Shown here: positions 1 to 343 of the stretch, piece by piece
Layout: every line of letters begins with the position of its first letter
How positions within the stretch are numbered: the stretch's first letter is position 1
From: a virus
Taxonomy: Duplodnaviria; Heunggongvirae; Uroviricota; Caudoviricetes
DNA length: 20,949 nucleotides
Virus record (IMG/VR): IMGVR_UViG_2585427741_000003
Strand: one strand, 5' to 3'
Notes under the pieces: model-generated
What the model was told of the DNA's origin: nothing
The model's database searches: none
What the model saw: the letters and a program-made list of their open reading frames with translations, nothing else
Position numbers and translations under genes: made by a program

Positions 1-159
1 GTAGAGCACCCGTTTCGCATCATCAAGCGGCAGTTCGGCTTCGTGAAAGCCAGATACAAGGGGCTGCTGAAAAACGATAACCAACTGGCGATGTTATTCA
101 CCCTGGCCAACCTGTTTCGGGTGGACCAAATGATACGTCAGTGGGAGAGATCTCACTAA
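1..159 (+). CDS. insH: IS5 transposase (InsH-like), C-terminal fragment; 5' end outside window
   Basis: Frame 1 from position 1 translates to [52 protein letters not shown] and stops at 157-159, matching the recalled InsH C-terminus. Confidence 0.85.
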
Positions 160-305
160 AAACTGGGGATAACGCCTTAAATGGCGAAGAAACGGTCTAA
201 ATAGGCTGATTCAAGGCATTTACGGGAGAAAAAATCGGCTCAAACATGAAGAAATGAAATGACTGAGTCAGCCGAGAAGAATTTCCCCGCTTATTCGCAC
301 CTTCC
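1..305 (-). mobile_element. IS5 insertion sequence, partial (continues beyond the left window edge)
   Basis: Sequence 160-305 matches the recalled IS5 left end read in reverse; terminal inverted repeat CTTATTCGCACCTTCC at 290-305 (reverse complement of GGAAGGTGCGAATAAG). TTAG at 306-309 fits the YTAR 4-bp target of IS5. Transposase C-terminus is in frame at 1-159. Confidence 0.88.
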
Positions 306-343
306 TTAGAAGCTTTGGGATATGTTATTGCAGGAGGTGCTGT

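What the first reader, a model, noticed from the sequence alone, without database searches (positions are those of the whole stretch)
1..343. IS5 inserted immediately upstream of the Dam-replication operon
The IS5 terminal repeat ends at 305, only 38 bp before the dam start codon, with the transposase reading toward dam. The insertion probably separates the replication genes from their native early promoter and regulatory region (expected upstream: immunity and integration genes). That could lock the prophage in place or alter expression of dam and A from IS-derived transcription.
Basis: partly seen in the sequence, partly recalled or inferred. Interest (0 to 1): 0.45.

Follow-up and report, generated by a model that had tools for sequence, protein, structure and literature searches.

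The report
IS5 copy inside a prophage operon
An ordinary IS5-type jumping gene has landed in the tail of a small dispensable gene just before the methylase and replication genes of a phage-186-like prophage, which is routine prophage wear and tear rather than a new regulatory device.

Summary
Window 1-305 is the last 305 nt of a 1195-bp IS5-family element. It is 100% identical to annotated E. coli copies and 98% identical to K-12 IS5. Its terminal repeat ends at 305, a TTAG target follows at 306-309, and the dam ATG is at 344.

- Prophages 99.95-99.98% identical to the window have an empty site.
- That site lies inside ORFd/DUF3850, at codon 88 of 100, about 2.3 kb into the 186-type early lytic operon. 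It is not between the immunity region and a separate "dam operon".
- int and the apl-like gene lie upstream of the insertion in those relatives, so "locking the prophage in place" is not supported.
- Published experiments found no promoter activity in the IS5 3' end and near-complete read-through of K-12 IS5 in this orientation. Scans here found no outward promoter.

The likeliest effect is translational. A predicted -18.4 kcal/mol hairpin buries the dam ribosome-binding site. The upstream reading frame that would normally open it has been cut away.

The window is a whole draft contig that ends in the IS. The left junction could therefore not be found, and a rearrangement is not excluded. The same junction occurs in one other prophage backbone and in none of 5426 complete E. 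coli genomes. Ordinary; low interest.

The parts
1..305 (+). Right-hand 305 nt of a 1195-bp IS5-family insertion sequence; the contig starts inside the element
   Evidence: 0 mismatches to the IS copies in L014 and L015. 6 mismatches to K-12 IS5A, all in nt 1-122. 13541 matching places in complete E. coli genomes.
1..159 (+). Last 52 codons and TAA stop of the IS5 transposase (ins5A/insH), reading toward dam
   Evidence: Translation differs from K-12 InsH at one residue, V41 versus A. Weak PF01609 hit on the called fragment.
129..305 (+). The 177-bp 'IB' region of IS5 (permanent bend plus IHF site in K-12 IS5)
   Evidence: Window 123-305 is identical to K-12 IS5. PMC2753651 defines IB as the last 177 nt, shows it has no promoter activity alone, and shows it enhances a separate downstream promoter.
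290..305 (+). 16-nt right terminal inverted repeat, CTTATTCGCACCTTCC
   Evidence: Reverse complement GGAAGGTGCGAATAAG matches the K-12 left repeat GGAAGGTGCGAACAAG at 15 of 16 positions.
306..309 (+). TTAG target site, the right-hand copy of the expected 4-bp duplication
   Evidence: Present once at the empty site of near-identical prophages...ACTCCA TTAG AAGC.... Fits YTAR. The left copy was not observable.
306..347 (+). Orphaned 3' end of ORFd/DUF3850: codons 88-100 plus a TGA stop that overlaps the dam ATG as ATGA
   Evidence: Alignment to L003 9963-10004 and L001 6001-6042. The full-length protein is named 'Protein ORFd in retron Ec67' by a source. The Pfam DUF3850 domain covers residues 7-82, so the cut lies after the domain.
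331..358 (+). Predicted RNA hairpin that pairs the dam Shine-Dalgarno (AGGAGG, 332-337) with codons 2-5 of dam; the AUG lies in the loop
   Evidence: -18.4 kcal/mol, z = -5.3, 0 of 200 shuffles fold as well. An SD-occluding hairpin is predicted at dam starts of Fels-2, Klebsiella phages, SEN8 and, with a different sequence, ESSI2_ev129.
344..1201 (+). dam, an orphan DNA adenine methyltransferase of 285 aa, intact
   Evidence: PF02086. PADLOC orphan methyltransferase model, 1.3e-111. The identical protein is found on 24 contigs.
1198..3612 (+). Gene A, a P2/186-type replication endonuclease of 804 aa, intact; its ATG overlaps the dam stop as ATGA
   Evidence: PF05840 Phage_GPA. Same length as in uninterrupted relatives. 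Overlap seen in the sequence.

Best explanation
A copy of an IS5-family element transposed recently into a TTAG inside ORFd/DUF3850. The element is 1195 bp in its identical relatives and is an IS5/ISKpn26-type variant. ORFd/DUF3850 is a small accessory gene of the early lytic operon of a 186-related, retron-carrying prophage. The transposase points the same way as the operon.

Shown: the right junction, the empty site in near-identical prophages, the position at codon 88 of 100, and intact dam and A.

Inferred consequences:
1. ORFd loses its last 12 residues. If the left side is intact it gains about 7 IS-encoded residues, and its conserved domain (residues 7-82) is kept.
2. Transcripts from the early promoter pR must cross about 1.2 kb of IS to reach dam and A. 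Judging from K-12 IS5, most of them will.
3. The main effect is translational. In the intact phage, ribosomes finishing ORFd stop at an ATGA overlapping the dam start. In doing so they open a stable hairpin that buries the dam ribosome-binding site.
4. After the insertion no reading frame crosses 306-343. Dam synthesis should therefore fall, and so probably should synthesis of the overlapping, cis-acting A protein.
5. The expected result is a prophage that can still be induced and excised but replicates poorly.

The IS supplies no promoter of its own. This is routine prophage erosion, not a regulatory device.
For: IS identity and exact terminus. Empty site with one TTAG in prophages 99.95-99.98% identical over 3-8 kb. 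Gene order and ORFd identity. Pfam domain limits of ORFd. dam and A unchanged in length and dam identical in sequence. No consensus promoter or terminator on the + strand of 1-343. The relaxed promoter scan gave at best 8 of 12 matches, none using the 38-bp flank; the 184-nt untranslated gap has G 47 against C 33, so it is not C-rich. The IS5 3' end has no promoter activity: PMC2753651. Transcription runs through K-12 IS5 in the ins5A direction with at most about 15% loss, and the ins5A promoter is otherwise inactive: PMC11894529. Hairpin. Its recurrence in divergent dam genes. ORFd is dispensable, since most related prophages and phages go from traR straight to dam. A bona fide IS5-family insertion with matching TTAA duplications sits in the same operon and orientation in strain NH-21.
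Against: The left junction was never seen. The predicted ORFd'-IS5 fusion protein was not in the 15-billion-protein collection, although other genes of this assembly are. The look-ups covered two IS left-end variants recorded here, two further hypothetical left-end variants and eight truncated forms; one search found no representative covering the IS-derived tail. The junction patterns were absent from three contig collections. The IS is 94% identical to K-12 IS5, with differences concentrated in the first 500 nt, so the K-12 read-through and promoter data may not transfer fully. The hairpin and the coupling are predictions. The stem is almost invariant among close relatives, so covariation support is thin: only SEN8 and ESSI2_ev129 differ. 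The A start has no comparable structure (-9.1 kcal/mol, z = -0.68), so A may be translated independently.
Confidence: 0.6

Rival explanations
1. The IS marks a rearrangement rather than a simple insertion. After insertion, recombination with another IS5 copy, or an IS-mediated adjacent deletion, removed or relocated the left part of the prophage (int to ORFd'). dam, A, the retron and the late genes would then be a remnant cut off from pR and from int/apl altogether.
For: None of the predicted left-junction products is on record. The two IS copies that are 100% identical to the window's IS end (L014, L015) have non-matching flanks, TTAA on the left and TTAG on the right, next to truncated genes; this shows that the variant is often involved in rearrangements. 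The closest relatives of this prophage carry assorted large deletions.
Against: Absence of one small protein from a collection is weak evidence: the contig may be missing, or the allele or the gene call may differ. The prophage to the right of the IS is full-length and 99.6-99.98% identical to relatives through the late genes. That fits a very recent simple insertion.
Confidence: 0.25
2. One reading: the IS drives or activates dam and A independently of the phage repressor. This would work either through an outward or hybrid promoter or through the IS5 bend/IHF enhancer.
For: The enhancer region IB is present, identical to K-12 and adjacent to dam. IS5 activates glpFK, bgl, flhDC and fucAO in E. 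coli (PMC2753651, PMC11894529). The 5' part of this IS variant differs from K-12, so its transposase promoter has not been characterised.
Against: IB alone has no promoter activity and needs a separate downstream promoter at a suitable distance. Only 38 bp, containing the ribosome-binding site, separate the IS from dam. No promoter-like site was found in 1-1300 on the + strand, nor across the junction, nor in the whole IS variant. Constitutive A protein would nick the prophage origin in a lysogen, which should be harmful (inference from P2/186 biology).
Confidence: 0.05
3. The IS5-dam junction is an assembly artefact at a contig end.
For: The window is a draft contig that begins inside a multi-copy repeat.
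Against: The break falls exactly at the last base of the IS5 terminal repeat and is followed by a YTAR target. The identical junction is present in an independent assembly on a different prophage backbone (L012).
Confidence: 0.02

Closest known systems
IS5 of E. coli K-12 (IS5 family, IS5 group) and its ISKpn26-type relatives
   Same: The last 183 nt, including the terminal repeat and the IB region, are identical to K-12 IS5. The transposase C-terminus differs at 1 of 52 residues. A YTAR target follows the end. The copies that match the window exactly are 1195 bp long.
   Different: Those exactly matching copies differ from K-12 IS5 at 70 of 1195 positions (94%), mostly in the first 500 nt. 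NCBI's pipeline labels their transposase 'IS5-like element ISKpn26 family'. The ISKpn26-labelled copy in strain NH-21 is only 87% identical to the window's end.
IS5 activation of fucAO, glpFK, bgl and flhDC in E. coli
   Same: Same element, and for fucAO the same orientation, with ins5A co-directional with the downstream genes. The 3' IB end faces the downstream genes (PMC11894529, PMC2753651).
   Different: Those cases involve insertion upstream of a silent promoter, or next to a Crp site that switches on the transposase promoter. Here the IS sits inside a coding sequence in the middle of an operon, 38 bp from the next start codon, with no downstream promoter to enhance.
186-related retron prophages carrying Ec67 or Ec86 (Dodd and Egan 1996, as cited in PMC6868368)
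   Same: 186-type switch and early-operon gene content, an ORFd identical to 'ORFd in retron Ec67', a phage dam next to A, and a type II-A (Ec86-type) retron between the early region and the portal gene.
   Different: This copy carries the IS in ORFd. 186 itself was not compared directly here. That 186 lacks dam and ORFd is my recollection, not a tool result.
ISKpn26 insertion in the same operon of E. coli NH-21 (NZ_CP148034.1)
   Same: An IS5-family element in the same orientation in the same early operon, with both ends and a matching 4-bp duplication (TTAA) visible.
   Different: It lies between fil and DUF5347, about 1.1 kb further upstream, in an intergenic position. It is a different IS5-family member.

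Membership tests
IS5 (IS5 family, IS5 group) | 16-bp imperfect terminal inverted repeats GGAAGGTGCGAAYAAG at both ends | tested here: inconclusive
   The right repeat is present and exact at 290-305. The left end lies outside the contig.
IS5 (IS5 family, IS5 group) | One DDE transposase gene (InsH/Ins5A, PF01609) filling most of an element of about 1.2 kb | tested here: inconclusive
   Only the last 52 codons are in the window. They match K-12 InsH at 51 of 52 residues and gave a weak PF01609 hit. Copies identical over these 305 nt are 1195 bp long with a complete annotated transposase gene.
IS5 (IS5 family, IS5 group) | 4-bp target duplication at a YTAR site | tested here: inconclusive
   TTAG directly follows the IS end and occurs once at the empty site. 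The left copy could not be retrieved.
IS5 (IS5 family, IS5 group) | Nucleotide identity to the reference element | tested here: met
   299 of 305 positions match K-12 IS5A, and 305 of 305 match two annotated E. coli copies.
IS-mediated promoter activation (outward or hybrid promoter, or IS5 IB enhancer) | A promoter within or across the IS end, or a native promoter downstream of the IS for IB to act on | tested here: not met
   No promoter-like site on the + strand in 1-1300. The best relaxed match is 8 of 12 and lies wholly inside the IS. IB alone is promoterless in experiments.
186-type early lytic operon (context of the insertion) | Divergent cI and apl-cII-fil genes followed, on one strand without gaps, by small ORFs and then A | tested here: met
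   Seen in uninterrupted relatives 99.95-99.98% identical to the window. cII (PF06892), Fil (PF10893) and CI (PF07022) were identified, and the genes are tightly packed or overlapping from the 73-aa gene through A. Not visible in the window itself.

The most novel reading that the evidence does not exclude
The ORFd::IS5 allele might be maintained or spread because it is useful. The identical junction sits on two prophage backbones that diverge by 3.8% starting at gene A. That could mean the allele has moved by recombination under selection, or that this TTAG is a preferred IS5 target. By abolishing the translational coupling that opens the dam hairpin, the insertion would cripple phage replication. 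The retron and other cargo would stay intact, making this a defined, reversible step in prophage domestication.
Probability: 0.06. Interest if true: 0.4.

Novelty: already known. Interest (0 to 1): 0.1.

Why it matters
It matters little beyond annotation. It corrects the picture of where the IS sits: inside ORFd in the middle of the early operon, not at an operon boundary. It also shows that the contig ends here only because the IS is a repeat. For anyone working with this strain, it predicts a prophage that can be induced and excised but replicates poorly. The one reusable point is the predicted hairpin over the dam ribosome-binding site. It suggests that Dam synthesis in this phage group depends on translation of whatever gene lies upstream. 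That would make any insertion at this junction polar at the level of translation even if transcription reads through.

Tried and rejected
1. Left junction by exact protein look-up. I predicted the ORFd(1-88)-IS5 fusion with the K-12-type tail (GKVRTSP), the ISKpn26-type tail (GKVRTSS) and two further hypothetical tails. I also tried eight truncated forms of 87-94 residues. None is in the collection.
2. Homology search with the predicted fusion. No cluster representative covers the IS-derived tail; the best coverage is 93%.
3. Exact-pattern scans for the right and left junctions in viral, genome-representative and metagenome contigs. All six scans found nothing.
4. Complete E. coli genomes. None of 5426 has this junction. 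The only record covering at least 80% of window 1-1500 (NH-21) has a different IS5-family element at a different site.
5. Search for a parent of the second backbone (L012). The best complete-genome match to its A region is only 98.3%, so no donor was identified.
6. The roughly 785-bp extra segment between dam and A in some genomes looked like a possible IS. It is an extra 822-bp gene, not an IS.
7. Rfam scan of the window at gathering thresholds found no match.
8. The 69-aa minus-strand ORF at 197-406 spans the IS/phage junction and is dismissed as spurious.

Full report
**What is at 1-343.** The window begins inside an insertion sequence. Positions 1-305 match the last 305 nt of 1195-bp IS5-family copies in E. 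coli OkiPb01684 and BE311 without a mismatch. Against IS5A of K-12 MG1655 there are six differences, all within nt 1-122. Frame 1 encodes the last 52 residues of the transposase and stops at 157-159; one residue differs from K-12 InsH. The 16-nt right terminal repeat occupies 290-305. It is followed by TTAG (306-309), which fits the YTAR target of IS5. The dam ATG is at 344. The segment occurs at 13541 places in 2843 of 5426 complete E. coli genomes.

**Why only one end is visible.** The exact Dam protein look-up shows that the window is the entire draft contig JOQG01000046.1 of assembly GCA_000713975.1, 20949 bp. The contig stops in the IS because the IS is a repeat. Nothing to the left can be read from this sequence.

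**Where the IS landed.**
- Eight other contig types carry the identical Dam protein without an IS. Five of them (L003, L005, L008, L009, L010) are 99.95-99.98% identical to the window over 3-8 kb starting at the junction. Three (L004, L006, L007) are 99.6% identical over 10.9 kb.
- At the corresponding point they read ...ACTCCA TTAG AAGC..., with one TTAG and no extra DNA.
- That point is codon 88 of a 100-codon gene, DUF3850. A source names its exact protein 'Protein ORFd in retron Ec67'.
- The stop codon of this gene overlaps the dam start as ATGA.
- The Pfam domain spans residues 7-82, so the cut falls after it.

**Upstream context in intact relatives.** The order is int, a KAP-family NTPase and cI on one strand. 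On the other strand come a 73-aa gene in the apl/cox position, cII, fil, DUF5347, DUF2732, traR/dksA, DUF3850, dam and A. The insertion is therefore about 2.3 kb inside a 186-type early lytic operon. It is not at the boundary between an immunity region and a separate dam-replication operon. ORFd is dispensable. In most related E. coli prophages and in all phage records retrieved, traR runs directly into dam. The ORFd cassette is bracketed by a 15-nt direct repeat, GGAGGTGCTGTATGA.

**Transcription.**
- The consensus scan finds no promoter-like or terminator-like site on the + strand of 1-343.
- A relaxed scan gives at best 8 of 12 matches, all inside the IS, and none uses the 38-bp flank.
- The full IS variant has no promoter-like site and one weak + strand terminator-like hairpin, within chance expectation.
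- Window 129-305 equals the 177-bp 'IB' region of K-12 IS5. IB fused to lacZ had no promoter activity and acts only by enhancing a separate downstream promoter (PMC2753651). There is no room for such a promoter here.
- The K-12 ins5A promoter is described as otherwise inactive.
- In the fucAO system, transcripts started at the 5' end of IS5 run through the whole element, in the ins5A direction, into downstream genes. Overall operon expression there was only about 15% below that of the promoter alone (PMC11894529).
- The untranslated gap between the transposase stop and dam is 184 nt, with G (47) exceeding C (33). It does not look like a Rho loading site.

Taken together, IS-derived transcription of dam/A is unlikely. 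A strong transcriptional block on pR transcripts is unlikely too. One caveat applies: this IS variant differs from K-12 IS5 at 70 positions, mostly in the first 500 nt.

**Translation.** Positions 331-358 fold into an 11-bp hairpin of -18.4 kcal/mol (z = -5.3; none of 200 shuffles folds as well). The dam Shine-Dalgarno (332-337) pairs with codons 2-5 and the AUG sits in the loop. Hairpins occluding the ribosome-binding site are also predicted in related phages:
- Fels-2 and four Klebsiella phages: -10.6 to -14.3 kcal/mol.
- SEN8, with altered pairing partners: -8.4 kcal/mol.
- ESSI2_ev129, with an unrelated sequence: -9.8 kcal/mol.

In every intact case an upstream gene ends in or right next to the dam start. 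This is the classic arrangement for translational coupling: terminating ribosomes open the structure. After the insertion, ORFd ribosomes would stop about 25 nt into the IS left end (predicted). The transposase stops 184 nt upstream, and no other frame crosses 306-343. I therefore infer reduced Dam synthesis. Reduced synthesis of A is possible as well, because its ATG overlaps the dam stop. The A start has no comparable structure, however (-9.1 kcal/mol, z = -0.68). All of this is prediction, not measurement.

**Consequences for the prophage.** Excision of 186 requires Int and Apl (Dodd et al. 1993 and Reed et al. 1997, as cited in PMC7708051 and PMC3448106). Both genes lie upstream of the insertion in the intact relatives, so the suggestion that the IS locks the prophage in place is not supported. 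The more likely phenotype is a prophage that still switches and excises but replicates poorly. To the right of the IS the prophage looks complete. dam and A are intact, a type II-A retron follows, and the late-gene region runs on to the tail-fibre genes. Several of its nearest relatives have lost late genes by different deletions. The lineage is decaying in various ways, and this insertion is one more instance.

**Unresolved: the left junction.** I predicted the ORFd'-IS5 fusion protein for two recorded IS left-end variants, two further hypothetical variants and eight truncated forms. None is in the protein collection. A homology search found no representative with the IS-derived tail. Junction patterns were absent from three contig collections, and no complete E. 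coli genome has the junction. The two IS copies identical to the window's end have mismatched flanks, TTAA on the left and TTAG on the right, next to truncated genes. A later rearrangement that separated dam/A from the left part of the prophage is therefore a real alternative, to which I give about 0.25.

**An unexplained detail.** A second assembly (GCA_000700705.1, contig JNMY01000064.1, L012) has exactly the same IS-TTAG-dam junction, with no mismatch across window 73-1203. From position 1204, the start of A, it diverges by 3.8% (123 differences) and it lacks the retron. With 48 YTAR sites in the early operon and two possible orientations, an independent identical hit is improbable. One insertion followed by recombination near the dam/A boundary is more likely. 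That boundary is variable anyway: some genomes carry an extra 822-bp gene there. I could not identify a donor backbone; the best match is 98.3%.

**Verdict.** This is a real, recent IS5-family insertion of a well-known kind, inside a dispensable gene of a well-known prophage type. The interpretation needs correcting on location, on excision and on IS-driven transcription. Interest is low.

Noticed in passing
window 4493-6522: A type II-A retron of the Eco1/Ec86 kind. The NDT-like effector is at 4493-5398 (PADLOC NDT_II-A, 2.5e-97) and the reverse transcriptase at 5548-6522 (RT_II-A, 4.9e-123). A likely msr-msd lies at about 5386-5545, bounded by inverted repeats TGCGCACCCTTA.../...TAAGGGTGCGC. 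These repeats match the ends of Ec86 as I recall that sequence, while the interior differs. Rfam gave no hit at gathering thresholds.
   Followed up: partly
window 331-358; L017-L022 dam starts: A predicted hairpin buries the dam ribosome-binding site (-18.4 kcal/mol here). It recurs in Fels-2, Klebsiella phages, SEN8 and, with a different sequence, ESSI2_ev129. This suggests Dam translation in this phage group is coupled to the upstream gene.
   Followed up: partly
L003 9693-10004; L002 5282-5297: ORFd/DUF3850 behaves as a 300-bp cassette bracketed by a 15-nt direct repeat, GGAGGTGCTGTATGA. Most related prophages and phages lack it and join traR directly to dam at a single copy of that repeat.
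   Followed up: partly
L012 1-6685 (GCA_000700705.1, JNMY01000064.1): The identical IS5-TTAG-dam junction and an identical dam sit on a different prophage backbone. Divergence of 3.8% begins at window position 1204 (start of A) and there is no retron. This points to recombination at the dam/A boundary or a repeated hit at the same site.
   Followed up: partly
L002 3111-4306 (E. coli NH-21, NZ_CP148034.1): A different IS5-family element, ISKpn26, 1196 bp long and 87% identical to the window's IS end. It lies in the same early operon between fil and DUF5347, in the same orientation, with matching TTAA duplications.
   Followed up: yes
L016 2372-3193 (E. coli GZM7) and two similar genomes: An extra 822-bp gene of unknown function lies between dam and A. 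The dam/A boundary is therefore a site of cargo variation.
   Followed up: partly
window 17771-20949: The right end of the contig looks like an invertible tail-fibre segment. It holds a tail fibre (17771-19168) and its assembly protein (19170-19607) on the + strand. An alternative assembly protein (19579-20181) and a collar-domain fibre piece (20181-20732) lie on the - strand. An ORF then begins MLIGYVRVSTNDQ... at 20761, which resembles a Pin/Gin-type DNA invertase (from memory), and the contig ends inside it.
   Followed up: partly
L003, L005, L008, L010 (relatives 99.95-99.98% identical): The closest uninterrupted relatives have each lost late genes by different deletions. In L003 the reverse transcriptase is followed by ogr and then chromosomal genes. 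In L005 and L010 a truncated terminase gene is joined to gpU/gpD. All of them keep the int-to-retron half.
   Followed up: no
L014 601-1815; L015 601-1815: The two IS copies that are 100% identical to the window's IS end both have TTAA on the left and TTAG on the right, next to truncated genes. This suggests recombination between IS copies rather than simple insertions.
   Followed up: no
L003 5410-6741; L001 477-1994: Intact relatives carry a KAP-family P-loop NTPase gene between int and cI. It may be additional prophage cargo.
   Followed up: no
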